Virus record (IMG/VR): IMGVR_UViG_3300050015_000082
Coordinates: 1-44,224 of that record
Length of the DNA stretch: 44,224 nucleotides
DNA from: a virus
Reading direction: 5' to 3' (one strand)
A program made the translations under genes and the position numbers. The first letter of the stretch is position 1; the number at the start of each line of letters is the position of its first letter. The notes under the pieces were generated by a model. That model worked only from the letters and a program-made list of their open reading frames with translations, was not told the origin of the DNA and did no database searches. Shown piece by piece: positions 1,524 to 30,951 of this stretch.

Positions 1524-1524
1524 A

Positions 1525-11158: not shown

Positions 11159-11167
11159 GGGTGACGC

Positions 11168-11335: not shown

Positions 11336-11387
11336 CGTACTGAATCGAAAGTGCTTAACTTGAAAACGAGGTTGGAACAAAAACTTT

Positions 11388-12116: not shown

Positions 12117-12134
12117 TGACAGAGAGGACCGCAA

Positions 12135-13193: not shown

Positions 13194-13202
13194 GGAGATA
13201 TC

Positions 13203-14212: not shown

Positions 14213-14223
14213 GGCGGTGACCT

Positions 14224-14991: not shown

Positions 14992-17900
14992 GTGCCTAAG
15001 AGTTATCCTGTCCGAAACTCCATGAATGCCGGGGAATTTTCAGAACTTATATCTGGATTCCGAGAAGATATTCAGAAGTTTTCGAGCGGTTGCAAAATCC
15101 TCGAAAACGCAGTCCCGCTAGTCGAGGGCGGCGCAAAGAAGATGCCGGGGACGTACTTCGCGGGATCGACTGCGAACGGCGGTGCAATGTTCACCGCGTC
15201 AATCGCTGGCACTACCATGACTGTCACAGCGGTCAATTATGGCGTCCTACAGGTAGGGCAGACGATTGTGGGGGTTGGGGTAGCCTCTGGTACCACCGTA
15301 AGCGCCTACGGCACAGGGACTGGCGGCACGGGCACTTATACGATCACGCCTACTCAGACGGTAGCCAGTGAGACAATGCAGACGGCCAGCGACGGCAAAA
15401 GCCGATTGGTTCCATTCCAGTTCTCAACTTCCCAAGGAGCGGTTTTAGAACTGTCAGCGGGAATCATTCGGGTATGGGAAGGAGCCACTGAGGGGGATTG
15501 GTTTCTTGGTCTGGTTTCTAATCAGCTTTCGGGAGACTACGACCCGACAGTCTTATATTCCCCTGGCGATAAGGTTTCCGTCGGTCAATCCTGCCCAATT
15601 GGGTTGATCACTAATCCGGGAAGTCCAGTATTCTCTGTATCGCTCCTATCGGGAGGATCGGGATACGGTACACCGGGATCGACCGTGTCTCTTAGTTTTT
15701 TTGGCACTGGGTCTGGAGCGGCTGGATATGCGACTGTTGGCTATAGTTTTGGAAACATCGTTTCAGTCACTTTGACTTCTGGAGGGTCCGGTTATACCTC
15801 TACACCATCCGTGTCTGTCTCCGGTCCAGGCAGCGGCGCATATGTCTCTGCCACAGTGGGAGGCGGATATGCGATCTCAGGTTCCATTGTCTTAACAGCT
15901 CCGTATGGCGAACATATTTCGGGAGTAACAGCCACGGTATCTACGAACACGTCAAATGCCCTCAGCGTGACTATTACCGGAAGTTCTCCGGCGCAGGGGA
16001 TCAATATTGCTCTTGCGAATGCGACTCCCGCCAACAACAGCGCTGTGAATATTCAGGCTGCGATCCGGTCTCTGGTGTCTTTGAATTCAGCATCGAGCAA
16101 CTTCATCGATCTGTCTAAGTGGACTGTGACTCCAGACCCAACGTATTATGCGTCACCGTGGATAACGTTTCCGACCGGGAAAACTTTCTCGTTCATTGGC
16201 CCCGCCGAATACTTCTCGTGTTCCGCTATAAACCAAAACGATCATTTCCCATTTGCTGTTGTAGTTTCGGTTATCGGCGGGATTCCATCAGTGGCAGTGA
16301 TACAAAACTCCTCATATTGGACGATCATCTCCGCTCCGCCCATTCCGCCTATACCGATTGAGTTGACTACTCCATATGCTGAATCTGATTTATTTGCTCT
16401 TGATTGCAGTACGCAGAGTGCTGACGTTCTATGGATTTTTCACTCAAGTTACCCCCCAGCATGTGTAGAACGGTTCGGGCCTAATTTGTGGAAGTACAGT
16501 CTATCGCTTCCCGGCCAGCAACCGGGGGAACCTGCGTATCGAGGAACGCTGGATGTGGTGAAGACCGGGTACAGTGCTCTTGGACAAAATATTAGCCTCA
16601 TCTCGCAAGCAAATCCATGTACTGTAGTTCTGGCAAGTTCAAGTTCGTCTCGGCCATTCCAAGTTGGCGACCGAATCTATATCAATCTTGGTGCTGGACT
16701 TGTCGAACTTAACGAGGGCGAATTCCTTGTACGCTCTATTGCTTATGGGCCTGTTTCAATCCCAGTCGTTGACGCATCGGGAACGGGATCGACCGTTACA
16801 GCGATTGGGTGGTACATGACTCTCACCGATCCTGATTCCGGGACAGCGATTGACTCGACTAGCTATTTGCAATATCAGGGTGGAGGTTTCGCGGTAAAGG
16901 TTGTATCCATGTTTGCGGCGGCGGGAGACTATCCGGCTTGTGGAACTCTCTACCAGGAGAGGCTATGCGTTGGTGGAACAAATAATAATCCAACACAGAT
17001 CAAAGGGTCTGTAGAGGGCGATTACCCGGACTTCATCTGCGACCCAAATGAGGATGACTACGCGATTCAATATACGCTGGTGTCTAATCAGGTCAACCAG
17101 TTGCTCAACATGATCGGAACTCCCAACGCGCTCTTGGCTGGAACGTCTGGAGGGGTATGGGTTATTCAAGGATCGAATGGTTCATCCTCGTCTCTAAGCC
17201 AGACGAATGTGAGCGCGGTTGTCCAGTCAACTCTAGGCATAGCGGCATTGCAGCCTCAACTTGTTAACGGGTCTGCGATCTTTGTTTCTAGGTCAACCAG
17301 GATAGTTACGTTCCTTCTTTACAGTTTCCAGTCGAACACCTGGGAGAACATCGACCTGACCCGACTTAACAGGAGCATCACGATAGGCTCAAGTGAGTCT
17401 ACTTCAGGGATTGCGCAGACGGCATTTCAGATGGAGCCTTATCCAATCTTCTGGGCAGTTCGCAATGATGGGCAGTTGCTCGGGTTGGTGTTCAATACGC
17501 AGGATCAGGTGTTTGGATGGTTCCGAATCAACATGGTTCCCGAAGGCGGATACATCGAGTCCGCAGCGGTCATCACCGGATCTGGCCAAGAGGATCAGCT
17601 TGTCGTGGTTGTCAACCGAACCGTCAATGGAGTAGTTCAAAGGTACGTTGAATACTTCATGCCTCAGGAGATTTTCAGCCAACTACCCAATGCTTTCTTT
17701 GTGCATTCTGGCCAGCAGCTGCAGGGCGTAGGGCCTTTTGAAATCACTGGAATCACGAACACCAATCCTCCAGTGGTCACGGTCCCAGGGCATACATTCA
17801 CAGACGGCATGACGGTTCAAATCACCCAGGTCAACGGAATGGTTAGCCCAACCGGGCAAGCGATCAACCAAGACGCAACGGAAGCGTATACGGTCACTGG

Positions 17901-18456
17901 AGTGTCGGGGAATACGTTTGAGTTGCAGGGAATGGACACATCGACTTGGACTCCGTATGTGAGCGGAGGGTCAGTGTCGCAGGTCTTCAATCAGGTTACC
18001 GGGGTAAGCTACCTTCTTGGGAATACCGTAGTCGCTGTGGGCGATGGGGCGATCATTCTTGATCAGACCGAGGTAACCTCTGACGCGATCACATTCGACT
18101 ACTACGCCAATCTCATCACTATCGGAATACCCTATGACACGACCATCCAGCCGACGAACCCCGTGCTGAGTTCTCAGGGAGCCACCAGTAGAGGGATGCC
18201 GCAGAAGTTGAACAGGGTTACGCTCTCCCTGTATCAGTCGATGGGCGGTCAGTACGGAAACGATCTTGACCACATGTACGACATCACCTATGGGCAAGGA
18301 ACGAAGTTGAAGACCCCACAAATGAGCACAGGTGAATTCACGCGCGATATGGATTGCGACTGGACGGAAGAGAGTACATTCATTGTGAGGCAGAGCGATC
18401 CTCTTCCGTTTTGTTTAAGGGGAATAATTTTCCGTCTGTCAGCCAATCAAGACTAA
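14992..18456 (+). CDS. Nozzle / tail tubular protein B-like (T7 gp12-like) with large insertions, GTG start (1154 aa)
   Basis: Called from position and size. It has inserted Gly/Thr-rich modules, including SGGSGY..P..V...G.GSGA motifs at about 15640..15870. Confidence 0.5.
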   Translation: MPKSYPVRNSMNAGEFSELISGFREDIQKFSSGCKILENAVPLVEGGAKKMPGTYFAGSTANGGAMFTASIAGTTMTVTAVNYGVLQVGQTIVGVGVASGTTVSAYGTGTGGTGTYTITPTQTVASETMQTASDGKSRLVPFQFSTSQGAVLELSAGIIRVWEGATEGDWFLGLVSNQLSGDYDPTVLYSPGDKVSVGQSCPIGLITNPGSPVFSVSLLSGGSGYGTPGSTVSLSFFGTGSGAAGYATVGYSFGNIVSVTLTSGGSGYTSTPSVSVSGPGSGAYVSATVGGGYAISGSIVLTAPYGEHISGVTATVSTNTSNALSVTITGSSPAQGINIALANATPANNSAVNIQAAIRSLVSLNSASSNFIDLSKWTVTPDPTYYASPWITFPTGKTFSFIGPAEYFSCSAINQNDHFPFAVVVSVIGGIPSVAVIQNSSYWTIISAPPIPPIPIELTTPYAESDLFALDCSTQSADVLWIFHSSYPPACVERFGPNLWKYSLSLPGQQPGEPAYRGTLDVVKTGYSALGQNISLISQANPCTVVLASSSSSRPFQVGDRIYINLGAGLVELNEGEFLVRSIAYGPVSIPVVDASGTGSTVTAIGWYMTLTDPDSGTAIDSTSYLQYQGGGFAVKVVSMFAAAGDYPACGTLYQERLCVGGTNNNPTQIKGSVEGDYPDFICDPNEDDYAIQYTLVSNQVNQLLNMIGTPNALLAGTSGGVWVIQGSNGSSSSLSQTNVSAVVQSTLGIAALQPQLVNGSAIFVSRSTRIVTFLLYSFQSNTWENIDLTRLNRSITIGSSESTSGIAQTAFQMEPYPIFWAVRNDGQLLGLVFNTQDQVFGWFRINMVPEGGYIESAAVITGSGQEDQLVVVVNRTVNGVVQRYVEYFMPQEIFSQLPNAFFVHSGQQLQGVGPFEITGITNTNPPVVTVPGHTFTDGMTVQITQVNGMVSPTGQAINQDATEAYTVTGVSGNTFELQGMDTSTWTPYVSGGSVSQVFNQVTGVSYLLGNTVVAVGDGAIILDQTEVTSDAITFDYYANLITIGIPYDTTIQPTNPVLSSQGATSRGMPQKLNRVTLSLYQSMGGQYGNDLDHMYDITYGQGTKLKTPQMSTGEFTRDMDCDWTEESTFIVRQSDPLPFCLRGIIFRLSANQD

Positions 18457-20024: not shown

Positions 20025-21811
20025 TGCCGCGCATACCAGGAGTGCCTGAACTCGAACCGGTAAACCAACCAACAATGTCGCCGCAAGAGGCATCTCGTGG
20101 AGCCGAGGCCGTCTCCCAACTTGGGGCTGATGCCAATCAGTCTGTTCTATCCGCATTCGATCTTGAGATGTACATCAAGAAAGCACAGCAGCACGTTGAC
20201 TCCTTGGCTGCGCAGAATGACATTGCAAAGGCTTACGCTGATACTCAGAACCAACTGTCCAAGACTCAGAACTCCCGCGACGTGGACGGGGTGATTGAGA
20301 GCGCAAACCAGAATCTAAACGAGGTATCAAAGCGTTGGTCAACCTCGCCAGCAGCGATCCAAATTCAGCAGAGCGCCGATTCTCTCAGGCCGGACCTTAG
20401 CCACATTGGTACTGCTCGCCAAGTTGATCTGATGGGTAAGGAATTCAAGATCACCATCGACCGGCAGGCCGAAGTCCTGGCAGGGAGCTATGCACAGGAT
20501 AGGGCATCTGGCGGGTCTGGAGACATGTCTCTGGGCGCATTCTCTACAGCGGTACAGGGAGGCGTAGAAACTGGCCTTGTAGGAAACGTAGAGGCTGGGG
20601 AGTATGTTCGTCAGTTCCGGCAAAAAGGGCAAGAGCTTCAAATCAAAAATGCGATCTCAAATGCTAATCCGGAAGTAAACACGAAGATTTACGAGGACAT
20701 CGACAAGCACCGCGACATGTTCCCCGATGTAACGCAGGAGCAGTTGGACGTTCTCAAGGGGCAAGCTCTATCGGCATTCGAGGCGCACACAAAGCAGAAG
20801 GACTGGACTGAAGGGCAGATGGCCATCAAAACTCAGCTTGTTCCCAAGATCAACCAGTTCACGAATCCGGCTACGGGGAAGTTCGATGAGGGAGCGGCAC
20901 TGAAGGATAACGCGGATCGGTTGACGAAAGGCGAGATCACCGAAACGCAGTCGGGGGTTCTGGCACAGGGCTTTGCCTCACATGAGGCGCAGTTGAATGT
21001 CGGCTACAAGCAACAGGCAGAGAAAACCAAAAACGACATTGTGGACCTATTCCACAAGCGCAAGTATGCCGAGGCTACTTCCGCATTGGAGCAACACAAA
21101 CTAGACCCTGAATTTCAGGATATGTATGAGGGGCTGACAAAATACGGCGATTCGATGCGCCGCGAGGACCGTGCCGAGTATCGCGCCGATAGGTCATTCC
21201 AGATAGAGCAGGAGCAGGACAACAGTAACCGCACATTCTCTTCGCTGTTGAGCGACATGGCGCATGGGAAGATTTACACCGACTCTCAACTCATGCAGAT
21301 GGTAAATGGGAAGGGTTCTGTAAATCCTGGGCAGATGAGATGGCAAGAGGCTCAGGAATCCATGCAGGCCATGCGTAAGTACGAATCCGATCCTCAGTTC
21401 CAATCTGCGGTAAAGATGCTTGATGAAGGCTTTCCTGAAGCCGAGCAGACCCGAAAGCAGCGCCTTGCTCAGACGCACATGAGCGCACAAGGAAAGCAGG
21501 CCGAGCAGTCTGAAATCAATGCGAGAATAGAGGACCGAAAGTCTCTGACGTTTAAGGCGTGGCAAGCCAGGATCAACCAGAATCCGAACGAGGACAAGAT
21601 CGCTGCGATGAAAGAGGTCATGGCGCCTCAGATTCAGCAGCAGATTAGCCAGCAGATAGACGCCGCATTTGGTACGCAGCAGGCTCCTCCGTCAAGGGGA
21701 ATTCTCGATATGTTCCGTTCCTCTGGTACCACCAAAGAGGGAGCAACGAAGACGAATAGTGCTGGCGACAAATTGAAGTACACGGGGGGTAAATGGGTAT
21801 TGCAGCCATAA
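20024..21811 (+). CDS. Internal core/ejection protein candidate, Gln-rich helical (595 aa)
   Basis: Position and size are analogous to T7 gp15. No motif can be cited. Confidence 0.5.
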   Translation: MPRIPGVPELEPVNQPTMSPQEASRGAEAVSQLGADANQSVLSAFDLEMYIKKAQQHVDSLAAQNDIAKAYADTQNQLSKTQNSRDVDGVIESANQNLNEVSKRWSTSPAAIQIQQSADSLRPDLSHIGTARQVDLMGKEFKITIDRQAEVLAGSYAQDRASGGSGDMSLGAFSTAVQGGVETGLVGNVEAGEYVRQFRQKGQELQIKNAISNANPEVNTKIYEDIDKHRDMFPDVTQEQLDVLKGQALSAFEAHTKQKDWTEGQMAIKTQLVPKINQFTNPATGKFDEGAALKDNADRLTKGEITETQSGVLAQGFASHEAQLNVGYKQQAEKTKNDIVDLFHKRKYAEATSALEQHKLDPEFQDMYEGLTKYGDSMRREDRAEYRADRSFQIEQEQDNSNRTFSSLLSDMAHGKIYTDSQLMQMVNGKGSVNPGQMRWQEAQESMQAMRKYESDPQFQSAVKMLDEGFPEAEQTRKQRLAQTHMSAQGKQAEQSEINARIEDRKSLTFKAWQARINQNPNEDKIAAMKEVMAPQIQQQISQQIDAAFGTQQAPPSRGILDMFRSSGTTKEGATKTNSAGDKLKYTGGKWVLQP

Positions 21812-24800
21812 ACATCGATCCCTCTACTGGCGAGAGAGTACAGAACGTCCGCATTGACCCCACAACCGGGGAGCGAGTTCAGAGTGCGCCCACCTATGAC
21901 CCATCGAGCATTCCTACTGGGTCTTCCGATGACGCATGGAAAGCGGCGGTGCGATCTCGCACCATCGGCGTTGAACCTGGGTATGCCTACCAAAACAAAG
22001 ATGAGATTGACAAGCAACTCCGCGAACGTGATCCGAACTACGACAACACGGAACTCGACCCGACAATCGCCAACGACATTAAGGTAGGCCTTGAGGGTTC
22101 CGTGTTCGGCCTGCACGATAGGGAGAAACTTCCAGAAGAACTTCGCAACCCTGGCTTGATCGACAGGTTCGTTTCTGGATTGGCTCAGACAGTAGCAGAC
22201 GCTCCGTGGATGATTGCCGGTGGAACCGCAGGGGGTATTGCTGGTGCTGCGGCAGGTTCGGAGGTACCTATCGTCGGGAACGTCACCGTGGGGGCAATAG
22301 GAGCCGGAGCGGGCGCATTTGCTCTGCCAGCCGCAATGCGCGAGGCTTTGGTTGAAGGAATCAAGAATGGCGAAGTGAAGGATTTCTCCGACCTACTGAG
22401 ACGCTCTGCCAAGGTTCTTATTGAGGGCGGCAAGGGGGCAATCACCGGAGCGGCTACAGAGTTGGCCGGGGGAATTCCTGTTGGAAGCATGGTGGCCAAG
22501 AGTGCTCTCGCTACCACTGGGGTACGGTCTGTCTATCAAGCAGCAGCTCTGACCACCACGGCAGACGTTCTCGAAGGCAAGATTCCCACTGCTGGAGACT
22601 TCGCAGGCAATGCAGCGCTTATCGTTCCCTTGAACCTCATTACGCGCGGATACTCAATGAGCAAGGGGCAAGCAAGAGACGCATTGCTAGACGTATACAA
22701 GAAGGACGGACGGACCCCGCAGGAATCGAAAACCATACTCGATGCTCAGCCTCCCGTGAAGCCAGACCTCCCGCCTGGACTTCGCCCAGCAATTAAGGTT
22801 GGTGATTCGTTTATTGAGGGAGACGAAGGAGAGACGCATTCTGAACTGTCTGAGAGGTTGGGTGAGAAGCCTGTCACGATGTCCGAACTGGAGTCCGATC
22901 CTTCACTTGCTTCAAAAGTTCTCAGCACTCCAGAGATTCACGAGCAGGATGTTATAGATGCGGCATGGGTGACATGGGACGACGCTTTACGCAATGCGCA
23001 CGATCCTCGATTAGAGGATGAATCAAACATCGGAATAGAAGATCAGCGCCTTCAGGCAAGTCGAGGCAATCTGAAGTCCGGCAGGGGGTTCATAGACCAT
23101 GAAAGTGGCAAGTTTCTTTCTCGCTCTGAAGCTCGCCGATGGATGGAGAAAAATGAGCCAGATGTGCATGAGATGTGGCTTGAATCGCAGATGGGAGACA
23201 AACAGGCGGAACTCCATTCCGAGGATTACTCATCGGCACGAAGCCGTGTACAGAACCGCAATCTGGCTGAGGGTGATGAGACCATTTCCAACTTTTCTCC
23301 GCAGAATGCGGAACGTCTTGCGGCGGCACGGAAGGACTTGAACGAGATCAAAGCGGGAAATTCGTCCAAGGGGTACATCAAAGAAGTTCTGAGAACTCTA
23401 TTCTCCGGACAGCGCGATACGAGGATTGTGGATACTACGCAGTTGCGAGACATTCTCCAGAAGGAAATCCCGGATTACAAAGTCCAGCAAGCCTTGACGT
23501 ACTATCGAGACTATAAGGGTCGCCCAGAAGCATTGCAGGCGGCAATCGATAGGTACGACGCTGGAGAAAATGAGGCGCAAAAGGCACTTAATGAATCTCG
23601 TAGGATTGCGCAGAATCCATCCCCAGAACTTATAGAGGCTGATCGTAAGTACACGCAGTACATGACGGAAGCGTTAGAGGAAAAGAGGCAACTTGGAATT
23701 GGAGACAGCAGCATTGATCCTGCTAAATATGTTCCTCACGACTTGAAAAGAGTGGAGGATGAACAGTCATTTGGCGGTGGAAAGAAACCAATGGCTACGT
23801 CCTCCGCAAGGACCATGAAAAGAAAATATGCCACGCTCGATGAAGCTGTGGATGCTGGCGAGGAAAAACTAGAGGCCCGTTCGGTAAACGCCATAGATTT
23901 GCTGTCAATTTATGGGGATGACCACGCTAGACTGGTTGCCACTAATCTTCTTTCTACCGAGCTTATAAACACGAAGCTGGGAGAATATGGAACGCGAGAT
24001 GATCGCCCAGCCGGATGGGTAGAGCTCGATCCGAGGGGCAGAACGTTCGAGTTGAGGCAGGGTCCAGTATCTCGCTCACTATACGTTCCAAAAGATGTAG
24101 CCGACGCGATGAAGCCTTTATTCGAGCAGGGATTGAAAGGAACCGCTTTGGCTCCACTGCTCAAGACGCAGGGATACGTCAAGATGCTGGAGTTGGGCTT
24201 GTCCTTCTTTCACATGAAGGCGTTGAGCATCACGGCGTTCAATAACCAAAGCCTGACTCAGTTCACCAAGTCCCTCGTATCCGATACCAAGTCTCCGGAG
24301 TTTGCCTCAGCGGAGCGGGAGTGGGCAGCAGACGGCCTCACAACCACCAAGACCAGCACGCCCTACGAAGCCTACAAAGGGCTGAACAAGTCAAGCATCC
24401 CAACAGGGTTAGACAAACTGGCGAACGCGCCTATTATCAAGCAGGTTGATGCTGCTTTCAAGTGGACAACGAAAGAGACGTTCGATGTAATCCAGAGGAA
24501 ATTCAAGGTGGAGGACGCCTCTCGGAAAGCAGCGGCATGGATGGCGAAACACCCCGACGCTACAACTTCAGAACTGTTCTCGGCGCGGCGCTCGATTGCG
24601 AAAGAAGTCAATGCAGCCTATGGCGGGCTGAATTGGGATGTGCTTGGGGCGGGCAAAACCGTGAGGGATGTATCTCGCCTGTTCTTGCTGGCTCCAGACT
24701 GGACCTATTCAAACGTGTTGAATGCCAAGTATGCCTTCGAGGGTGGCCCTGCTGGCGATGCGGCTCGGATGTTCTGGATGAAGTCATTCGCTACTGGAAT

Positions 24801-25377
24801 CTCTATGACGGCGGCGGCGAGTATAGCCATCGGCGGAAAGTACGACCCTACCGACATCAAGCATCTCGACCAGGTTTACCTCGGGACCGATAAGGACGGC
24901 AAGGAGATGTATGCCGACTGGTTCTTTGCGGGCGCTCCGAGGGATGCCATGACGCTGATGAAGAATGTCGCCAGTGAATCTCCTATCGGAGGCACGGCGC
25001 GGTTCGTAGTCGGCAAGGCTTCCCCACTACTCGGAATGGCGTTCGGTTTATCATCGAACAATGCCGGTGGAAAGCCAATCACTTCCGCAGATGATACCGT
25101 TGGGGAGAAGTTTGGCAAGCAGTCTGAGTATGTGGCCAGCAGGGTTCTTCCGATCAGCGGTGTAAGCGCATTCAAGACGGTGAGCGATGCGCTGACAGAC
25201 CCCGACCACGAATACACCTACCGCGACCTTCTGGAGCTTGCGGCGGATACGATTGGATCGCAGACGATTCACTACGGCGACGGGGACAACGGGGCGGCAC
25301 CGAAATCGAAATCGGTTCTTTCGGGAGAAAGCAAGAGCGGGACTCGAAAGACGAAGAGGTTTAGCATACTGAAATGA
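21793..25377 (+). CDS. Large internal core/ejection protein candidate (1194 aa)
   Basis: Position and size are analogous to T7 gp16. It has a Gly/Ala-rich hydrophobic segment near aa 140-260. No lysozyme motif was seen. Confidence 0.5.
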   Translation: MGIAAINIDPSTGERVQNVRIDPTTGERVQSAPTYDPSSIPTGSSDDAWKAAVRSRTIGVEPGYAYQNKDEIDKQLRERDPNYDNTELDPTIANDIKVGLEGSVFGLHDREKLPEELRNPGLIDRFVSGLAQTVADAPWMIAGGTAGGIAGAAAGSEVPIVGNVTVGAIGAGAGAFALPAAMREALVEGIKNGEVKDFSDLLRRSAKVLIEGGKGAITGAATELAGGIPVGSMVAKSALATTGVRSVYQAAALTTTADVLEGKIPTAGDFAGNAALIVPLNLITRGYSMSKGQARDALLDVYKKDGRTPQESKTILDAQPPVKPDLPPGLRPAIKVGDSFIEGDEGETHSELSERLGEKPVTMSELESDPSLASKVLSTPEIHEQDVIDAAWVTWDDALRNAHDPRLEDESNIGIEDQRLQASRGNLKSGRGFIDHESGKFLSRSEARRWMEKNEPDVHEMWLESQMGDKQAELHSEDYSSARSRVQNRNLAEGDETISNFSPQNAERLAAARKDLNEIKAGNSSKGYIKEVLRTLFSGQRDTRIVDTTQLRDILQKEIPDYKVQQALTYYRDYKGRPEALQAAIDRYDAGENEAQKALNESRRIAQNPSPELIEADRKYTQYMTEALEEKRQLGIGDSSIDPAKYVPHDLKRVEDEQSFGGGKKPMATSSARTMKRKYATLDEAVDAGEEKLEARSVNAIDLLSIYGDDHARLVATNLLSTELINTKLGEYGTRDDRPAGWVELDPRGRTFELRQGPVSRSLYVPKDVADAMKPLFEQGLKGTALAPLLKTQGYVKMLELGLSFFHMKALSITAFNNQSLTQFTKSLVSDTKSPEFASAEREWAADGLTTTKTSTPYEAYKGLNKSSIPTGLDKLANAPIIKQVDAAFKWTTKETFDVIQRKFKVEDASRKAAAWMAKHPDATTSELFSARRSIAKEVNAAYGGLNWDVLGAGKTVRDVSRLFLLAPDWTYSNVLNAKYAFEGGPAGDAARMFWMKSFATGISMTAAASIAIGGKYDPTDIKHLDQVYLGTDKDGKEMYADWFFAGAPRDAMTLMKNVASESPIGGTARFVVGKASPLLGMAFGLSSNNAGGKPITSADDTVGEKFGKQSEYVASRVLPISGVSAFKTVSDALTDPDHEYTYRDLLELAADTIGSQTIHYGDGDNGAAPKSKSVLSGESKSGTRKTKRFSILK

Positions 25378-25387
25378 GAGGAAATCG

Positions 25388-25828
25388 ATGAAGATTCAGA
25401 AAGAAATAATTGACGCGGCAACTCTGGCAGCATTCGACCTGGAGAACTTCGACGAAAATCATCGGATGGATGAGGGTGAATGGACGCTGATGCTCGGCAC
25501 GGGGCGTGTTTGCATTTACACGGCGCGAGACGAACAAGAAGGAATCGCAGCAATTCTTGCATTAAAGGCCCCAGCGATTGAGGTTGGATTGTGGTACTTT
25601 TACTCGGTCGCCGTGTCCGAAAAGTATCGCCGGATGAACCTTGGAACCAGGCTGTTCCATGAGGCCATTGACTCAGAAATAGCTACCGGAAAAATCAATT
25701 CCCATTGCCACGTAGATAACGAGGCGTCGATTGGATTCCACAAGTCTTTGGGATTCCATGCCGTTCAATATGTCCCTGATTTCTACGGAGACTATGAGGA
25801 TGCTATCATGTGGGAGCGGATGCGTTGA
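25388..25828 (+). CDS. GNAT-family acetyltransferase (146 aa)
   Basis: VAVSEKYRRMNLGTRLFHEAI (a degenerate motif A) and NEASIGFHKSLGFHAV. RBS is GAGAGGAAATCG. Confidence 0.6.
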   Translation: MKIQKEIIDAATLAAFDLENFDENHRMDEGEWTLMLGTGRVCIYTARDEQEGIAAILALKAPAIEVGLWYFYSVAVSEKYRRMNLGTRLFHEAIDSEIATGKINSHCHVDNEASIGFHKSLGFHAVQYVPDFYGDYEDAIMWERMR

Positions 25829-25910
25829 GATCAATCTATCTGAATTCGTGGGCACACGCTTGGGACTGCATAAGCGAGGAACTTGGGCTGGATAACTGGA
25901 TGGCGAGTTG

Positions 25911-27170
25911 ATGGCAGAATCCTACAAGTCGAAGAGCGTGGCGGTAGTAGATAACGGATGTTACCCGGAACTGGCATCCAAGCTGAGCGAGAGCTTCGGC
26001 AAGGTTTACTATACCTCGCCCTGGGTAGCAGACTACCCCTCTTCGTACAAGACAGAACTGGCGAAGGGCTTCCCCGACTTTGAGCAGGTCAAGGACATCT
26101 GGGACATCGTTGACGATGTGGACCTGTTCGTGTTTCCAGATCAGCACCAGGGGCCGTTGCAGAACTACCTACAGAGGCAAGGGAAGCGCGTGTGGGGTTC
26201 CCGCGATGGAGACGAACTAGAACTGTACCGTGAGGAGGCCAGAGAATTCTTTGACAGCCTTGGGATCGTTCAGCCTCCCTATGAAGTGGTCCAGGGCATG
26301 ACCGCCCTACGAAAGTACATCAAGAGTCGTGACAAGGAAAAACTATGGGTGAAGATCAGCCGAACGAGGGGCGACACAGAGACTTTCTCGGTTGAGGGAT
26401 ACGAACTGAGCAAGGGGCACCTTGACGAGTTGGAAGCAGGGCTTGGTCCGCTTGCAGAATATAGGCCGTTCATTGTCGAGGAGAACCAGCCGGACACCTT
26501 CGACCTTGCCATTGACACGTACTGTATAGATGGTCAGTTTCCCTCCAAGAGCTTGCTTGGGAATGAGCAGAAGGACCAGGGATACATAGGAGTAGTCAAG
26601 GACTGGAAGCAGTTTCCGAAGCAGATGCGCGAGAACTATGAGAAGCTGAGTCCGGCACTCAAGGAATATGGATACAGGAACTTCTTTGCCATGGAGCATC
26701 GAACAGGCAAGCAAGGAATGTTCTTGAGCGACCCGTGCCTACGTGTGGGATCTCCCATCTTCGAGCTTGAAATGGAGATGATTGGAAACTTTGCAGAGAT
26801 TCTGTGGGAGGGCGCAGATGGAAAGCTCATCGAGCCAGAGTACCGCGCAAAGTACGGATACGAGATTTTCGTGCAAAGCGAATGGGTTGATGAACATCCC
26901 CTGCTAGTTAGCTTTCCAGACAAGTACCGGGATCAGATCAAGTTCCGCTACTCCGCTCAATTCCCCGATGGTCTATGGGTATTGCCTCAGAAGGCTGGAC
27001 CGATCTTTGGTGCAATCGTTGCCTACGGAGACAGCATAGACGACTGTGTAGGCCAGGCCGAAGATATCGCCGGTCAGATCAAGGGGCAGAATGTCGAATC
27101 GTTCACAGGTAGCGCAGAGGCGTTGAAGAAGAATCTGGAAGAGATGGAAGCATTTGGCGTAAAATTCTGA
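25911..27170 (+). CDS. ATP-grasp fold enzyme (PurD/RimK-like ligase architecture, 419 aa)
   Basis: LWVKISRTRGDTETFSV is a Lys/Gly-loop-like segment. FIVEENQPDTFDLAIDTYCIDG and GYRNFFAMEHRTGKQGMFLSDPCLRVGSP are metal/ATP-site-like segments, and all three occur in the order expected for an ATP-grasp fold. Confidence 0.6.
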   Translation: MAESYKSKSVAVVDNGCYPELASKLSESFGKVYYTSPWVADYPSSYKTELAKGFPDFEQVKDIWDIVDDVDLFVFPDQHQGPLQNYLQRQGKRVWGSRDGDELELYREEAREFFDSLGIVQPPYEVVQGMTALRKYIKSRDKEKLWVKISRTRGDTETFSVEGYELSKGHLDELEAGLGPLAEYRPFIVEENQPDTFDLAIDTYCIDGQFPSKSLLGNEQKDQGYIGVVKDWKQFPKQMRENYEKLSPALKEYGYRNFFAMEHRTGKQGMFLSDPCLRVGSPIFELEMEMIGNFAEILWEGADGKLIEPEYRAKYGYEIFVQSEWVDEHPLLVSFPDKYRDQIKFRYSAQFPDGLWVLPQKAGPIFGAIVAYGDSIDDCVGQAEDIAGQIKGQNVESFTGSAEALKKNLEEMEAFGVKF

Positions 27171-27183
27171 TTAGGAGAAGTCT

Positions 27184-27540
27184 ATGAAAAACAAATGGTT
27201 TCTAGGAGCGCTCTCGGTAGCGATTCTGACGATGGCAGTAGTCGTTATCCTGCCGCCAGCTAATGTTCATGGTCAGGCAATCGGATACACGGCAACTGGC
27301 CAGCAGGCCGTAATTGCAACCGCTACGGTAGTGAGTGGAATAAGCTACGGAACGGTGTGCATCAAGGCATTGAGCACAAACAGCATCAGCGTGTTCGTTG
27401 GCGGGCCGGGAGTAACGACTTCCACAGGCTTCGAGCTTACGGCAACTCAAGTTCCATATTGCGCTACCGTAAACAAGCTACCGTTTTATGTCATAGCCTC
27501 AACAACCGGAGCTTCTGTTTCTTGGATTGAAAATCGATAG
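27184..27540 (+). CDS. Small protein with an N-terminal signal/anchor sequence (118 aa)
   Basis: N-terminus MKNKWFLGALSVAILTMAVVVILPPANVHGQ. RBS is AGGAGAAGTCT. Confidence 0.6.
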   Translation: MKNKWFLGALSVAILTMAVVVILPPANVHGQAIGYTATGQQAVIATATVVSGISYGTVCIKALSTNSISVFVGGPGVTTSTGFELTATQVPYCATVNKLPFYVIASTTGASVSWIENR

Positions 27541-27549
27541 GAGTCGCGT

Positions 27550-30500
27550 ATGAAACGTATAGCCGTCTTTCTTTTAGCTCTTCTCCCGGTCGCGGCACAT
27601 GCCACTGTGACTACGCAAGCCATCAGCGTATCTTTTACCTGCACCGGGAGTACGGGACCCTATCCATTTGGGTTTCCAATCAGCACCGCAGCGGCTTTGA
27701 CTGTAACGCAGAACGGAGCAGTTCTGGCGTCTACGGCCTATACGATTTCTCCAGTGAATAACGATTATACAAATGGCGGGAGCGTTACGCTTAACACGGC
27801 GTGTGCTTCTGGTGGGAACCTTCTGCTTCTAAAAAGGCAAACTCCACTGACTCAAACCAGTGTATTCACAGACAACATGCCAGTGCCGATGAAGAGCTTC
27901 GAGCGTGGCTTGGACAAGTTGACGGAAATCGCACAAGAGCAAAATGCTGCAATTGGCAATGTTGTGCCATGGCCTACGACGGCGGGGATTCCTTACTGGG
28001 CAAGCGGCCTATCGTGGGCGGGCGCGTACAACGCGAGCAATCCGATACCGGCAAATTACTTGCCATCAATTGCTAGTTTAGGAGGAGTCGCCAACAACGC
28101 TCCCGCTCTCGCTGCCCCGACATTGTGCATCGACACATCTTTCAACGGCGCATCCTATGCATGTTCAACTACACCTACCTTCACTCCTGTCAACGGGACT
28201 CGAATCATGTTCATTCCGAGCGTTGATTCACTTTTGAACGCGACCGTATCAGTGAATTCAGGTAGACCCGCGTCGATCATGACCCCGACCTTTGGCGGGG
28301 GCACTACTATCCTCGCTGATCAACTTATCGACGGCCAAGTGGTATCGCTCGTGTACAGGACGAGTTTAGGGGGATGGTGGCAAATCGACGGAGGGGATGG
28401 GACCAGGCAGGTGAACGAGGGCGGCACAGGCGCGACCACAGCAGCAGGGGCGCTGGCGAACCTTGGCGCGGCAGGAACAGATCTTGCCAACACCTTTACG
28501 CTGTCGCAGGCGTTCAATCACCCATTGGACTCTACCGGGAACACGTTCTTTCAGTGCGGGTTGACAACTCCTCAATTCTGCCAGCTAACGTTTCAAGACT
28601 ATGCTGGAGGTTATGTTGGATACGTAGCCGCCTATGGAAGTGGTGCCACAAGCCAAATTGGATTGACCACCGGTGCAGGTGGGATGGTTATCGATCATCT
28701 AGGCAAAGGGACATTCGCGCAAGGACTCTCTACATCGTCTTTTGCTCTCAACGGTGGCACATCCATGACCGGCAACCAGGGGACCGGCGCATACGTGCAG
28801 CACTCGGACGGGACGGGAACCAACTCACTAGCGGCGTTCAATGCAGACGGGAGTACGAAGGATAGCGGCATCACCGTAACCGGCTCCGGTTCATCGCAGG
28901 TGGTCACGGCGCCGGGAAGTTTCGCGGCACCCACTGTGGTGCTTAGCGGCGCGACTGGAACACAGTGTCTGCATGAAGTCTCTGGGTCAATCCTGCCCAC
29001 TGGAAGCGATTGCGGGTCAGGCGGCGGCGGTGGATTGCCAACGGGTTGGGTTGATCCTGTGACCAGCTACAACGCGGCGGGTGTAGCAACGACAACGACC
29101 GGCACTATCTCGGCCTCGTCTAACAGTTTGGTTGTGGCATCCTCAACCGGATGGACCGCAGGCATGGGAATTGCGGTGTCGGGGTCTGGAGCAAAAGGGG
29201 GTGTCTACGCGTTCACTGTGACTGCACCGGGATCGTACACGGTCTGCCCGACAGCCTTCAGCTTCACGGGCGGCGGCGGTGCCAGCGCGGCGGGAACTCC
29301 AACGTGTCACTGGACACCTTCCACGGGCGTCTACACGGTGACTGGCGGCATAATTACGAATGTCGGCAGCGGCTACACTACCGCCCCGACCATAGGATTC
29401 ACCGGAGGCACCGGAAGCGGTGCGGCTGCTACAGCGATCATCACGTCTGAGTTAGTCACCACTGTTTCCGTAATCAGCGGGACTACATTTACTTTGGCGG
29501 CGAATGCCTCAACCGCGGTGAGCGGTGCAACCATCCAGCACGACGATACAGCGGCCCTGAACGCGGCGAACGCCTCAGGATACAACGTCTATTGGAGGCC
29601 CGGAACCTACAATGTCACCGGCCCGATCAACGTCAGTTCGGTGTTTAAGTTGCTTGGTGCGGGCGGCCAGACGACCATCAACAACCGTGGCAGAACCAAC
29701 AACGTGATCAATGTTACCTACTCGGTTTATTCCACGAGCGGTGTAGCCTTGCCACCGGGGCCGGAGATAAGCGGGTTCCAGATTGTGCAAGACCCGAGCA
29801 TCACGCCGGTCTCGGGGTGCGGGCTGCAATGGGGATCGGGCGCCATAAACCCCTATACAGAAGGGGTGCGCATGCGCGACATTGGCATGACCAATACCTG
29901 GGCCGGACTCTGTGCCATCGACGGCACCGCACTTAATTTTCTGCACGATATCAGGGTGCAGAACACGGTCAGCGGTTGGGGGATTTACTACAACTCAAGG
30001 TCTCCAGGCGGTGACAATAACTTTGACGGCGTGTCGCTGTGGCTGAATGCCGGACTCTACATCATCAACGGTGCCACTAACCCGTACACCAACCTGAAAA
30101 CCAACACGGGGGGCATGACCACTCCGGTCATCTTCGGGTCTGGAATAATCATGGATCAGCGATTTGATAATCCGTCACTTGACGGTCTGACAACCACCGG
30201 ATGTTCGATGGACTTTACGGCAGCAAATATTAACACGGTAACCATCACTTCGGGAGACTGGGGAGGCGCCACAGCTTTCTGTGCTCCGCAGAATGTGGGC
30301 AGTTTAACAGCGACTGGCTTTCTGAATTCCAGCTCTATAGGTCGTTTTGCAATCAATCAAATGCCGAATCTGACTATCTACAGTGCTGTCCCCGGCACCG
30401 GAATCACTCTCACGAACGGGACGCATACCGGCGCACAGCTATTTGCGAGTGGCTCTCTGGCTGACACCGGGATTCTCGTTTTAGCGACCGGAGGAACAAA

Positions 30501-30951
30501 CACCATACATCTGTCGGGAGCATCTAGCGATGCTAGTTGGTTCAACAACGGCGGGTGTGTGGCGATAGGGGGGACGACGTGCGCTCTCGGTGCGCTTGAA
30601 GTGTACGGCACTGTTGCAACCTACGCCGAGAGCGGCAACTCTCCGACCATCAGTTCTTTTTCTGGAACCAAATATGCTCAGTTTTACTACAACAGCCCCA
30701 GCGATGCGATGTTAGTTCAACTGGTGGGGTCTGCGACAGGTGGCGTAAAGATACAGAACTATACCTCTGGTGCTTATATCAACCTGCTCAGCACCAACTA
30801 CTTTGGCATCGGGAAAACGCCATCCTACTACCTCGACGTGAACGGGGATGTGAACACTGGCGGCGTCTTCCGGACCGGCGGAACTGCTGGCGTGACGAAG
30901 ACTTGTACAACCTACCCGACAGTAGCCGGGGGAATTGTGACGGGATGCTGA
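27550..30951 (+). CDS. Tailspike-like beta-helix protein with a Sec-type N-terminal signal-like sequence (1133 aa)
   Basis: N-terminus MKRIAVFLLALLPVAAHATV. A pectate-lyase-type start motif, QHDDTAALNAANASGYNVYWRPGTYNVTGPI, lies at about 29533..29620. It occupies the position of T7 gp17. Confidence 0.6.
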   Translation: MKRIAVFLLALLPVAAHATVTTQAISVSFTCTGSTGPYPFGFPISTAAALTVTQNGAVLASTAYTISPVNNDYTNGGSVTLNTACASGGNLLLLKRQTPLTQTSVFTDNMPVPMKSFERGLDKLTEIAQEQNAAIGNVVPWPTTAGIPYWASGLSWAGAYNASNPIPANYLPSIASLGGVANNAPALAAPTLCIDTSFNGASYACSTTPTFTPVNGTRIMFIPSVDSLLNATVSVNSGRPASIMTPTFGGGTTILADQLIDGQVVSLVYRTSLGGWWQIDGGDGTRQVNEGGTGATTAAGALANLGAAGTDLANTFTLSQAFNHPLDSTGNTFFQCGLTTPQFCQLTFQDYAGGYVGYVAAYGSGATSQIGLTTGAGGMVIDHLGKGTFAQGLSTSSFALNGGTSMTGNQGTGAYVQHSDGTGTNSLAAFNADGSTKDSGITVTGSGSSQVVTAPGSFAAPTVVLSGATGTQCLHEVSGSILPTGSDCGSGGGGGLPTGWVDPVTSYNAAGVATTTTGTISASSNSLVVASSTGWTAGMGIAVSGSGAKGGVYAFTVTAPGSYTVCPTAFSFTGGGGASAAGTPTCHWTPSTGVYTVTGGIITNVGSGYTTAPTIGFTGGTGSGAAATAIITSELVTTVSVISGTTFTLAANASTAVSGATIQHDDTAALNAANASGYNVYWRPGTYNVTGPINVSSVFKLLGAGGQTTINNRGRTNNVINVTYSVYSTSGVALPPGPEISGFQIVQDPSITPVSGCGLQWGSGAINPYTEGVRMRDIGMTNTWAGLCAIDGTALNFLHDIRVQNTVSGWGIYYNSRSPGGDNNFDGVSLWLNAGLYIINGATNPYTNLKTNTGGMTTPVIFGSGIIMDQRFDNPSLDGLTTTGCSMDFTAANINTVTITSGDWGGATAFCAPQNVGSLTATGFLNSSSIGRFAINQMPNLTIYSAVPGTGITLTNGTHTGAQLFASGSLADTGILVLATGGTNTIHLSGASSDASWFNNGGCVAIGGTTCALGALEVYGTVATYAESGNSPTISSFSGTKYAQFYYNSPSDAMLVQLVGSATGGVKIQNYTSGAYINLLSTNYFGIGKTPSYYLDVNGDVNTGGVFRTGGTAGVTKTCTTYPTVAGGIVTGC

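What the first reader, a model, noticed from the sequence alone, without database searches (positions are those of the whole stretch)
25388..27170. GNAT acetyltransferase + ATP-grasp ligase pair between the ejection proteins and the tailspike
Seen: a 146-aa GNAT-like ORF starts 10 nt after the 1194-aa core protein. A 419-aa ORF follows 82 nt later. Its three conserved segments (LWVKISRTRGDTETFSV; FIVEENQPDTFDLAIDTYCIDG; FFAMEHRTGKQGMFLSDPCLRVGSP) occur in the order of the ATP-grasp fold. A second GNAT (7502..7930) sits right after terL. Established: ATP-grasp enzymes catalyse ATP-dependent carboxylate-amine ligation (PurD, RimK, D-Ala-D-Ala ligase, cyanophycin synthetase, TTL-like glutamylases). 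GNATs acylate amines. RimK/RimI-type enzymes modify proteins post-translationally. Inference: this may be a two-enzyme ligation/acylation module that modifies virion or ejection proteins, a host envelope or peptidoglycan precursor, or a small metabolite. Its placement in the structural module, at the slot where podoviruses carry accessory genes, is unusual. I know of no described function for such a pair in that slot.
Basis: partly seen in the sequence, partly recalled or inferred. Interest (0 to 1): 0.72.

Follow-up and report, generated by a model that had tools for sequence, protein, structure and literature searches.

The report
Core phage ATP-grasp ligase, incidental GNAT
The two genes are real, but they are not a conserved pair: the 419-aa protein is an intact PurD-like ATP-grasp enzyme from a very large, unnamed phage family that is a core late gene here and is often coupled in relatives to amine-making decarboxylases, whereas the GNAT is a rare, mobile accessory gene that happens to sit beside it.

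Summary
Observation confirmed. The ORFs, the gaps (10 and 82 nt) and the three quoted segments are exact. Both GNATs pass Pfam's cutoff. The 419-aa protein models confidently (pLDDT 88) as a full-length ATP-grasp closest to PurD (TM 0.73; family profile vs Aquifex PurD E 1e-11).

Interpretation partly supported. The ATP/Mg/catalytic residues are near-invariant across 150 diverse relatives, but the classical Asn ligand is always Cys, Thr or Ala. In a sample drawn independently of the ATP-grasp, 25 of 27 related T7-like loci carry the ATP-grasp and 1 of 27 carries a GNAT. GNAT homologs also occur in other slots.

The ATP-grasp family has at least 1,325 clusters at 50% identity and no Pfam, PHROG or NCBIfam model. 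It always lies in morphogenesis modules and carries inteins at five or more catalytic motifs. Its recurrent partners are pyruvoyl decarboxylases (AdoMetDC-like, and once the unrelated PvlArgDC; 31 of 76 loci, with overlapping genes), an unknown 125-aa protein (24 of 76), and HAD or acylphosphatase fusions.

Best reading: a late-expressed ATP-dependent carboxylate-amine ligase using a polyamine-type amine. The acceptor is unknown.

The parts
21793..25377 (+). 1194-aa internal virion (gp16-like core/ejection) protein. It is the conserved gene upstream of the variable slot.
   Evidence: ORF. Homologs lie in the same position in about 28 related loci (cluster C1). No family-library hit.
25388..25828 (+). 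146-aa GNAT acetyltransferase, RimI/Naa-like. It is a rare accessory gene occupying the variable slot between the core protein and the ATP-grasp gene.
   Evidence: PF00583 at 44.9 bits, above the 20.7 cutoff. Nearest PDB sequences are N-alpha-acetyltransferases, E 6e-5. Only 32 close homologs. Present in 1 of 27 independently sampled relatives.
25628..25645 (+). GNAT 'motif A'-like loop R-R-M-N-L-G. This is the expected acetyl-CoA pyrophosphate-binding loop, with the first Gly of Q/RxxGxG/A replaced by Asn.
   Evidence: Read directly from the translation. It lies within the Pfam-aligned region 25-123. Its function is inferred.
25829..25910 (.). 82-nt spacer between the GNAT and ATP-grasp genes.
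   Evidence: No promoter- or terminator-like site above chance and no composition shift.
25911..27170 (+). 419-aa PurD-like ATP-grasp enzyme (alternative TTG start at 25908). It is a core late gene of the clade.
   Evidence: AF2 pLDDT 88. Foldseek top hit PurD, E 6e-19, TM 0.73. Family profile vs Aquifex PurD E 1e-11. 1,325 representative clusters. Present in 25 of 27 independently sampled relatives.
26229..26231 (+). R107, which aligns with the Lys of PurD 'LEGSK' (ATP phosphate contact).
   Evidence: Alignment. R in 144 of 150 representatives.
26343..26393 (+).
   Evidence: (K148 147/150; R153 148/150; E157 147/150). An intein is inserted at RGD|TETF in P0251.
26469..26534 (+).
   Evidence: E190 in 138 of 150 and D202 in 150 of 150. 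Coordinates.
26565..26573 (+). E219-Q-K221 motif. In the profile alignment with Aquifex PurD it falls on a poorly conserved stretch (PurD 'LLDEDKG'), which does not fix a residue-level equivalence. An intein insertion site in three relatives.
   Evidence: E219 in 150 of 150 and K221 in 149 of 150. Inteins lie after EVKD in P0198, P0229 and P0237.
26682..26756 (+).
   Evidence: D274/C276/R278 align with E/N/R of PurD 'LEFNVRLGDP'. E262 in 143, D274 in 143 and R278 in 143 of 150. Position 276 is C 75, T 55, A 10, never N. Inteins lie at DP|C, DPC|C and DPALR|C.
27184..27540 (+). 118-aa ORF with a hydrophobic N-terminus. It is a variable accessory gene between the ATP-grasp and the spike.
   Evidence: Homologs only in L020 and L031. 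No family hit.
27550..30951 (+). 1133-aa tailspike or fibre. Its N-terminal ~130 aa are conserved among relatives.
   Evidence: Residues 1-130 match at 42-73% identity downstream of the ATP-grasp in about 24 loci.
7502..7930 (+). Second GNAT, overlapping the end of terL. It is not a paralog of the first GNAT.
   Evidence: PF00583 at 51.8 bits. BLASTP vs the first GNAT gives E 0.09.

Best explanation
The stretch holds two independent genes rather than a two-enzyme module. SHOWN: (1) 25911..27170 encodes a four-domain, PurD-like ATP-grasp protein whose nucleotide, Mg and catalytic residues are conserved across a very large unnamed phage family. (2) That family is a core gene of this T7-like lineage and always sits inside virion-morphogenesis modules, also in two other phage architectures. 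(3) 25388..25828 encodes a RimI/Naa-like GNAT that occupies a variable slot. In relatives that slot is empty or holds an unknown 125-aa protein (C5), an AdoMetDC-like pyruvoyl decarboxylase, or an HNH-C5 fusion. INFERRED mechanism: the enzyme binds ATP between the B-loop (R153-F159) and the central domain (K148, R107, E190). It holds Mg through E262 and D274, and phosphorylates a carboxylate to an acyl-phosphate stabilised by R278, and perhaps by K221. An amine then attacks to give an amide plus phosphate. The amine is most likely a polyamine-type product of amino-acid decarboxylation (agmatine, putrescine or a decarboxylated-SAM-like compound). This follows because in 31 of 76 relatives a pyruvoyl decarboxylase gene overlaps the ATP-grasp gene, and two unrelated decarboxylase families fill that role. 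The window phage encodes no decarboxylase, so it would draw the amine from the host pool. The carboxylate partner (a small molecule or a virion protein) is not known. The GNAT most likely acts separately, plausibly as a protein N-terminal acetyltransferase, and its adjacency is an accident of where accessory genes are tolerated.
For: Fold: AF2 pLDDT 88. Foldseek top 50 are all PurD, biotin carboxylase or PurK, best TM 0.73. Profile-sequence homology to PurD across the N, A and C domains, E 1e-11. Residues: E104, R107, K148, R153, E157, E190, D202, E219, K221, E262, D274 and R278 are conserved in 138-150 of 150 representatives. Importance: 1,325 clusters at 50% identity. LAGLIDADG-type inteins are inserted in five or more of these motifs. 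Core status: 25 of 27 loci sampled through IVP-A carry it. Late-module placement in three architectures. Amine link: AdoMet_dc PF02675 in cluster C4 (28.2 bits, above the 25 cutoff) in 29 loci. Two more canonical AdoMet_dc (E 5e-17) and one PvlArgDC PF01862 (E 5e-45) in slot ORFs. These genes overlap the ATP-grasp gene by 1-22 nt. The pyruvoyl Ser and catalytic Cys are invariant in C4. Acyl-phosphate chemistry: N-terminal fusions to acylphosphatase PF00708 (E 2e-15) and to HAD phosphatase (E 6e-8). Precedents: the ATP-grasp HsvC ligates L-Val to amidinospermidine (PMC6187163). Phage SpeD homologs act as arginine or ornithine decarboxylases (PMC9992855 and PMC10407285). GNAT independence.
Against: No biochemical data exist, and there is no cultured phage: only two Aquificae UViGs appear among 50,697 GenBank phage records. 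The window phage and most of its closest clade lack any decarboxylase (0 of 27; 5 of 35 T7-like loci), so the amine link rests on more distant relatives at about 40-45% identity. The classical Asn Mg ligand is missing (C/T/A). The C4 decarboxylases have Asp where the T. maritima enzyme has the His68 described as essential for self-processing (PMC10407285), so their activity is itself unproven. Constant placement among structural genes would fit a protein substrate just as well. Gene calling in the loci was a simple greedy ORF picker, and IMG/VR returns only the best 80 loci per scan.
Confidence: 0.55

Rival explanations
1. The GNAT and the ATP-grasp form one two-step ligation and acylation module acting on the same target (a virion or ejection protein, an envelope precursor or a metabolite).
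For: The two genes are adjacent and co-oriented in the window, with no terminator between them. The same IVP-C, GNAT, ATP-grasp order recurs in L017, L094 and the P0395 contig. The GNAT sits exactly where other phages place the decarboxylase or C5 partner.
Against: A GNAT is near the ATP-grasp in 3 of 76 loci and in 1 of 27 independently sampled loci. None of 36 other slot ORFs is a GNAT. The closest relative, L004, has C5 instead. GNAT homologs at 57-64% identity sit elsewhere without an ATP-grasp. The GNAT family has 32 members, against hundreds to thousands for the ATP-grasp.
Confidence: 0.08
2. The ATP-grasp is a protein-modifying ligase of the RimK, TTL or graspetide type. It adds amino acids or amines to, or cross-links, a virion protein (capsid, portal, internal protein or spike) during assembly.
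For: It is invariably placed in morphogenesis modules, next to internal virion proteins and the spike, or between terL and portal, or between portal and capsid. It is a core gene. The small conserved C5 protein, with its invariant acidic 'EPGD' stretch, could be a substrate or adaptor.
Against: The nearest structures are all small-molecule or carrier enzymes. RimK, LysX and TTL are absent from the PDB top 50, and viral TTL-like hits reach only TM 0.36 or less. The full PurD-type N and C domains are retained. The decarboxylase, acylphosphatase and HAD partners point to metabolite chemistry. No conserved poly-acidic tail or precursor peptide was seen beside it.
Confidence: 0.2
3. It takes part in post-replicative hypermodification of phage DNA (or RNA) just before packaging, for example by appending an amino acid or amine to a modified base.
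For: Late expression beside terL and portal in some lineages. Some N-terminal fusions resemble PNKP-type HAD phosphatases (21 bits, below the cutoff). Known thymidine hypermodification pathways combine kinase, transferase and decarboxylase steps (my own knowledge, not tested here).
Against: No hydroxymethylase, nucleotide-metabolism or polymerase gene was found among the window ORFs scanned. There is no nucleic-acid-binding domain. The HAD_PNKP hit is weak.
Confidence: 0.07
4. It is a bona fide purine-biosynthesis auxiliary gene (PurD or PurK), as annotated for the Thermocrinis virus homolog.
For: PurD is the closest structure and the only significant sequence relative. The TGBSV homolog is annotated as phosphoribosylaminoimidazole carboxylase.
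Against: No GARS_N/A/C or purD/purK model hit, even at E 0.1. Identity to PurD is 12-16%. The PurD 'NTGGMG' loop is not conserved. It is never next to purine genes and always lies in structural modules. PurK scores only E ~0.1.
Confidence: 0.03
5. It is a catalytically dead ATP-grasp fold recruited as a structural or assembly protein.
For: Its position among structural genes. The loss of the canonical Asn ligand.
Against: Near-invariance of exactly the ATP, Mg and catalytic residues over 150 clusters at 31% mean identity. Inteins target those motifs. Fusions to phosphatases.
Confidence: 0.04

Closest known systems
PurD (glycinamide ribonucleotide synthetase, phosphoribosylamine-glycine ligase)
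   Same: Same four-domain architecture (N, B, A, C). Best structural match (TM 0.73) and the only significant sequence relative (E 1e-11). Shared Lys, Arg and acidic Mg ligands, and the '..E/D-x-x-x-R-x-G-x-P' motif.
   Different: Only 12-16% identity. No GARS Pfam or NCBIfam hit. The Asn ligand is replaced by Cys, Thr or Ala. The PRA-phosphate loop is absent. The gene lies in virion modules rather than purine operons.
Biotin carboxylase and PurK (carboxyphosphate-forming ATP-grasp enzymes)
   Same: Next-best structural matches (E 1e-15 to 1e-14). The TGBSV homolog is annotated as PurK. The E262/D274/R278 spacing resembles biotin carboxylase E276/E288/R292, and from memory PurK and PurT also lack the Asn (my own knowledge, not tested).
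   Different: Lower TM (0.5-0.6). Sequence similarity is not significant (PurK E ~0.1). No biotin-carrier or purE partner.
ATP-grasp ligases that acylate polyamines: HsvB/HsvC of phevamine A, and glutathionylspermidine or trypanothione synthetase
   Same: The proposed chemistry (carboxylate plus polyamine amine, through an acyl-phosphate). They cluster with amine-producing or amine-modifying enzymes. A glutathionylspermidine synthetase homolog clusters with homospermidine synthase in phage Motura (PMC6187163; PMC9992855; PMC2427367, listed).
   Different: No detected sequence or top-ranked structural relation to these families. The substrates here are unknown. The context is a virion module, not a metabolite operon.
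Phage AdoMetDC/SpeD homologs and the virus-encoded polyamine enzymes described by Li, Michael and co-workers
   Same: The recurrent neighbour (cluster C4) is an AdoMet_dc-family pyruvoyl protein with the Ser and Cys conserved. Phage homologs are known to act as arginine or ornithine decarboxylases. Phage GNAT spermidine acetyltransferases are also known.
   Different: Those papers do not mention an ATP-grasp partner ('ATP-grasp' occurs 0 times). C4 has Asp in place of the essential His. The window's GNAT resembles RimI/Naa enzymes, and no SpeG-type model or structure appeared among its hits.
RimK/RimI (ribosomal protein S6 glutamylation and S18 acetylation)
   Same: The GNAT's weak best matches are RimI (28.7 bits) and archaeal or eukaryotic N-alpha-acetyltransferases.
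   Different: RimI scores far below its 86.4-bit cutoff. The ATP-grasp is PurD-like, not RimK-like. RimK and RimI are not themselves a functional pair, and the two genes here are not co-conserved.

Membership tests
ATP-grasp superfamily | Three-part alpha/beta fold with a flexible B (lid) domain that grasps ATP | tested here: met
   AF2 model pLDDT 88. 555 PDB matches with E<=0.001, and the top 50 are all ATP-grasp enzymes.
ATP-grasp superfamily | Conserved Lys (plus a second basic residue) contacting the ATP phosphates | tested here: met
   K148 aligns with the PurD 'VVKADG' Lys, and R107 with the 'LEGSK' Lys. Conserved in 147 and 144 of 150.
ATP-grasp superfamily | Mg ligand triad: acidic, acidic, Asn | tested here: inconclusive
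   E262 and D274 are conserved (143 of 150 each). The Asn position is C, T or A in all members and never N. The effect on catalysis is unknown.
ATP-grasp superfamily | Catalytic Arg four residues after the second acidic ligand | tested here: met
   R278 aligns with the PurD Arg. Conserved in 143 of 150.
ATP-grasp superfamily | ATP-dependent ligation through an acyl-phosphate | not testable with these tools
   Needs an enzyme assay. Acylphosphatase and HAD fusions are circumstantial.
PurD (GAR synthetase) orthologs | Match to the GARS_N/GARS_A/GARS_C or purD models above their cutoffs | tested here: not met
   No Pfam or NCBIfam hit at E<=0.1.
PurD (GAR synthetase) orthologs | Conserved substrate loop (NTGGMG) and a purine-pathway context | tested here: not met
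   The loop aligns to a non-conserved 'degyvgvv' stretch. The neighbours are virion genes.
RimK/TTL-type protein-modifying ATP-grasp | Closest structural or sequence relatives are RimK, LysX or TTL | tested here: not met
   Absent from the PDB top 50. Viral TTL-like hits have TMq 0.24-0.36.
GNAT superfamily (25388..25828) | Acetyltransf_1 domain above the gathering score | tested here: met
   44.9 bits against a 20.7 cutoff.
RimI (S18 alanine acetyltransferase) equivalog | TIGR01575 score above its cutoff | tested here: not met
   28.7 bits against an 86.4 cutoff. There is only a resemblance to N-alpha-acetyltransferases.
SpeG/BltD polyamine N-acetyltransferase | Best similarity to characterised polyamine acetyltransferases | tested here: not met
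   None among the NCBIfam or PDB hits, which are RimI, AAC(6') and Naa10/50.
Conserved two-gene GNAT + ATP-grasp module | Co-occurrence of the two genes across relatives | tested here: not met
   3 of 76 loci. 1 of 27 independently sampled loci against 25 of 27 for the ATP-grasp alone. The GNAT also occurs elsewhere.
Decarboxylase + ATP-grasp gene pair (proposed here) | A pyruvoyl decarboxylase gene adjacent to or overlapping the ATP-grasp gene | tested here: not met
   Not met in the window, which has no C4 or C5 hit anywhere. Met in 31 of 76 relatives with two unrelated decarboxylase families.

The most novel reading that the evidence does not exclude
This ATP-grasp family, together with its pyruvoyl-decarboxylase and C5 partners, forms a previously undescribed late-stage phage pathway. 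The pathway would make an amide conjugate of agmatine, putrescine or a related amine. The product could be a free molecule co-packaged with or needed for DNA condensation and ejection, or a covalent 'polyaminylation' of a virion protein. It would be essential for producing infectious particles in a very large group of uncultivated soil and freshwater podoviruses.
Probability: 0.25. Interest if true: 0.8.

Novelty: new variant of a known kind. Interest (0 to 1): 0.58.

Why it matters
Enzymes embedded in phage structural modules are usually sporadic 'morons'. Here a metabolic-type ligase is a core late gene in a family with more than a thousand sequence clusters, yet no curated library recognises it and no cultured phage carries it. 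Its coupling to amine-generating decarboxylases ties it to polyamine biology, where virus-encoded decarboxylases and acetyltransferases have been characterised. The two such surveys read here do not mention an ATP-grasp ligase of this family. If the chemistry is confirmed, it would define a new virus-encoded conjugation step and explain a large block of viral 'dark matter'. It would also give a marker gene, intein hosts included, for a major uncultivated podovirus lineage. For annotation, the result warns against reading gene adjacency in one genome as a functional pair.

Tried and rejected
1. Pfam, PHROGs, NCBIfam and PADLOC scans of the 419-aa protein gave no hit. Single-sequence phmmer against PDB sequences gave only noise.

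2. The first genome-contig scan, with patterns from A1, found nothing. Alignment A2 was too diverse for pattern extraction. The second scan gave only 4 loci, so host assignment stays loose: Acidobacteria and Opitutaceae MAGs and a Bradyrhizobium prophage.

3. The Iyer et al. 2009 amidoligase survey (PMC3268129) is not held. Later papers from the same group mention only RNA-ligase and R2K ATP-grasp families in phages.

4. The Aquificae virus paper does not discuss the homolog.

5. I tested whether the GNAT is a SpeG-like polyamine acetyltransferase, which would have fitted the polyamine theme. I rejected this: its relatives are RimI/Naa-type.

6. I tested whether the two window GNATs are paralogs. 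They are not.

7. I looked for a cassette signature around the GNAT (GC content, promoter, terminator) and found none.

8. The C5 structure (pLDDT 95.6) has no PDB fold match. The best hits have E 0.3 and only a faint zincin-like resemblance, so C5 stays unassigned.

9. My recollection that PurK and PurT also lack the Asn ligand could not be tested, because the profile does not reach them significantly.

10. A single-protein IVP-A scan gave only 4 loci and was replaced by an alignment-based scan.

11. Cytochrome oxidase subunit 4 hits cover a short stretch (residues 80-129) and are treated as spurious.
Full report
OBSERVATION. A 1194-aa protein ends at 25377. A 146-aa ORF runs 25388..25828, 10 nt later. 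A 419-aa ORF runs 25911..27170, 82 nt after that, with an in-frame TTG at 25908. Then come a 118-aa ORF and an 1133-aa spike-like protein. The three quoted peptide segments are present at residues 145-161, 187-208 and 258-282. The surroundings form a T7-type structural module: terL, portal (PF12236), scaffold-like ORF, capsid (PF20911), tail tube A and B, and three internal virion proteins. Both GNATs pass Pfam's gathering score, and they are not paralogs of each other.

IS THE 419-aa PROTEIN AN ATP-GRASP? No curated library recognises it (Pfam, PHROGs, NCBIfam, PADLOC). An AlphaFold model built on 51 homologs is confident (pLDDT 88, pTM 0.87). Foldseek places it full-length on PurD/GAR synthetases (2yw2_A, E 6e-19, TM 0.73/0.72), followed by biotin carboxylases and PurK. 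Viral TTL-like and other ATP-grasp models match far less well. A family profile reaches Aquifex PurD by sequence alone, at E 9e-5 with the close alignment A1 and E 1e-11 with the broad alignment A2. That alignment spans the N-terminal part and the A and C domains.

The alignments give residue equivalences. R107 matches the Lys of 'LEGSK'. K148 matches the Lys of 'VVKADG'. D274-P-C276-L-R278-V-G-S-P matches 'E-F-N-V-R-L-G-D-P'. Across 150 representatives of 50%-identity clusters, E104, R107, K148, R153, E157, E190, D202, E219, K221, E262, D274 and R278 are each conserved in 138-150 sequences. The position of the canonical Asn ligand is Cys (75), Thr (55) or Ala (10), and never Asn. The protein is not a PurD ortholog: no GARS models hit, the substrate loop is not conserved, and the genomic context is wrong.

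HOW BIG AND HOW IMPORTANT IS THE FAMILY? There are 422 hits in the 90%-clustered collection, all unnamed. There are 1,325 representatives at 50% identity, 813 of them with E<=1e-30, and 298 IMG/VR contigs. Among 50,697 GenBank phage records only two Aquificae UViGs match. About a dozen representatives are 760-800 aa and carry homologous LAGLIDADG-type inteins. These are inserted at five or more different sites, all within the conserved motifs: after D71-x-F, RGD|TETF, before A200-IDT, EVKD|, and DP|C, DPC|C or DPALR|C. This pattern is typical of catalytically essential proteins.

IS THE GNAT + ATP-GRASP PAIR CONSERVED? No. In loci fetched through the ATP-grasp (90 loci, 76 non-redundant), the order is fixed in the T7-like relatives: tube B, IVP-A, IVP-B, IVP-C, [slot], ATP-grasp, [variable], spike. 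The slot holds a GNAT only in the window and L017, with another GNAT 1.5 kb upstream in L050. None of 36 further slot ORFs is a GNAT by Pfam. The closest relative, L004, has IVP-C 90% and ATP-grasp 87% identical, and it carries an unrelated 125-aa gene there.

To remove ascertainment bias I sampled loci through IVP-A instead. Of 27 non-redundant loci with at least 7 kb downstream, 25 carry the ATP-grasp, 8 carry C5 and 1 carries a GNAT. From the GNAT's side the family is small, with 32 members. Two contexts repeat the window's order, and two place the GNAT upstream of a portal-sized gene with no ATP-grasp nearby. No promoter, terminator or composition signal sets the GNAT apart. The GNAT's nearest solved relatives are protein N-alpha-acetyltransferases at E 6e-5. 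RimI scores 28.7 bits against a cutoff of 86.4, and nothing resembles SpeG.

WHAT DOES THE ATP-GRASP TRAVEL WITH? Neighbour clustering shows two recurrent small genes immediately upstream.

Cluster C4 (29 loci by HMM) is an AdoMet_dc-family pyruvoyl protein: PF02675 at 28.2 bits against a 25 cutoff, and two more canonical members at E 5e-17. Its pyruvoyl Ser and catalytic Cys are invariant. It has Asp where the T. maritima enzyme has the His68 described as essential (PMC10407285).

In L056 the gene overlapping the 3' end of the ATP-grasp is instead a PvlArgDC arginine decarboxylase (PF01862, E 5e-45). That family is unrelated to AdoMetDC but performs the same type of amine-producing reaction. 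These decarboxylase genes overlap the ATP-grasp gene by 1-22 nt. In total, 31 of 76 loci have a pyruvoyl decarboxylase adjacent.

Cluster C5 (24 loci; 506 homologs; no Pfam domain) has a confident model (pLDDT 95.6) with no PDB fold match, and an invariant H10/H48-E49-x-x-E52/E96-H97 pattern. Starting from C5, the ATP-grasp is adjacent in two of three independent contexts.

Several ATP-grasp representatives carry N-terminal fusions to HAD phosphatases (P0159, E 6e-8) or to an acylphosphatase (P0162, E 2e-15).

In other architectures the gene lies between terL and portal, or between portal and capsid. It is therefore always in a late morphogenesis module.

The window itself encodes no C4 or C5. 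No nucleotide-modifying genes were found among the ORFs scanned.

MECHANISM. Shown: an ATP-grasp fold with a conserved catalytic apparatus; core-gene status; late-module placement; operonic coupling in many relatives to amine-generating decarboxylases.

Inferred: an ATP-dependent carboxylate-amine ligation through an acyl-phosphate, using a polyamine-type amine (agmatine, putrescine or a dcSAM-like compound). In the window phage the host would supply the amine. The carboxylate partner is unknown.

Precedents: the ATP-grasp HsvC condenses L-Val with amidinospermidine (PMC6187163). In searching for the E-64 gene clusters, which contain an ATP-grasp enzyme, the authors reasoned that the clusters might also encode a dedicated decarboxylase (PMC12568646). 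Phage SpeD homologs act as arginine or ornithine decarboxylases, and a phage glutathionylspermidine synthetase homolog clusters with homospermidine synthase (PMC9992855 and PMC10407285). Those two polyamine papers do not mention an ATP-grasp partner.

The main caveat is that the decarboxylase link comes mostly from relatives about 40-45% identical to the window protein. In the window's own clade the partner is C5 or nothing. A protein substrate therefore remains a serious rival.

VERDICT. The domain calls are right, but the 'pair' is not a functional unit. The notable object is the ATP-grasp family itself: a new, very large, phage-specific branch of PurD-like ATP-grasp enzymes of unknown substrate, which is a core gene in virion modules. 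I rate it a new variant of a known kind, with interest 0.58.

Noticed in passing
Proteins P0122, P0124, P0142, P0153, P0185, P0198, P0229, P0237, P0248, P0251 (relatives of window 25911..27170): Homologous inteins of about 350 aa with LAGLIDADG-type blocks sit at five or more different sites of the same ATP-grasp family. Each lies in an invariant motif, with Cys or Ser as the +1 residue. The conserved Cys at 276/277 serves as the +1 nucleophile in several. This suggests the intein has moved between sites within one host gene.
   Followed up: partly
L004:5305-5679 and cluster C5 (e.g. L003, L006, L007, L015, L016, L019; fused to HNH in L029:9117-9992): A family of 125-aa proteins (506 homologs, no Pfam domain) with an invariant H10, H48-E49-x-x-E52, E96-H97 pattern. 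Its model is very confident (pLDDT 95.6) yet has no PDB fold match. It occupies the window's GNAT slot in about 30% of close relatives, and its gene often overlaps the ATP-grasp gene.
   Followed up: partly
Cluster C4 (e.g. L046, L044, L072, upstream of the ATP-grasp); L056:9293-9853: AdoMetDC-like pyruvoyl proteins with Ser and Cys conserved, but an invariant Asp where the T. maritima enzyme has the His68 reported as essential. In one locus the unrelated PvlArgDC takes the equivalent place.
   Followed up: partly
P0158, P0159, P0167, P0192, P0193, P0162 (N-termini): ATP-grasp family members with N-terminal HAD-phosphatase or acylphosphatase domains fused on.
   Followed up: partly
window 726..1562 (-): A 277-aa pentapeptide-repeat protein (PF00805, E 3e-56) in the early or accessory region. 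Such proteins can mimic DNA, so it may be an anti-restriction or gyrase-protection function.
   Followed up: no
window 14992..18456 (+), residues 933-998: The tail tube B protein contains an insertion matching the ubiquitin-E1 FCCH domain (PF16190, E 1e-10). The same domain is flagged in relatives L002 and L003.
   Followed up: no
window 27550..27640 (+) and spike genes of relatives: The conserved ~130-aa spike N-terminus begins with a signal-peptide-like stretch (MKRIAVFLLALLPVAAHA). Many relatives place 1-3 extra genes with signal-peptide-like N-termini between the ATP-grasp and the spike, for example the ~180-aa 'AWAVGTCxVTDVTSTQ' family (cluster C8, 12 loci).
   Followed up: no
L009:6766-8922 and 11593-17352: One relative has spike genes with the conserved N-terminal domain on both sides of the ATP-grasp gene.
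   Followed up: no
window 7502..7930 (+); contexts of P0409 and P0418 (L095): The second GNAT overlaps the terL stop codon. In other phages, homologs of the FIRST GNAT sit in a comparable pre-portal position. GNATs therefore appear to move between at least two permissive slots of the late operon.
   Followed up: partly
L036 (Bradyrhizobium oligotrophicum S58 chromosome, 5725808-5746990): A prophage-like region with terL, an ATP-grasp homolog (35% identity) and portal. The ATP-grasp reading frame looks interrupted: ORFs 9986..10585 and 10808..11413 share the frame of the match, and a 541-aa ORF lies in another frame. It may be a decaying copy or a sequencing or frame artefact.
   Followed up: no
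window 40902..41555 (-), 39356..39721 (-): A YqaJ-type recombination exonuclease and a KTSC-domain protein on the opposite strand. No polymerase turned up among the ORFs scanned, so a T7-like virion module may be combined with a lambdoid-style early region.
   Followed up: no
L089 (+1 gene after the ATP-grasp), and other slot ORFs in A6: Other single-locus neighbours of the ATP-grasp include a PAPS-reductase-family protein (E 5e-15), a DHHA1 phosphoesterase domain (E 2e-9) and an Acb2/Tad1-hairpin (anti-CBASS/Thoeris sponge-like) domain (E 2e-6).
   Followed up: no
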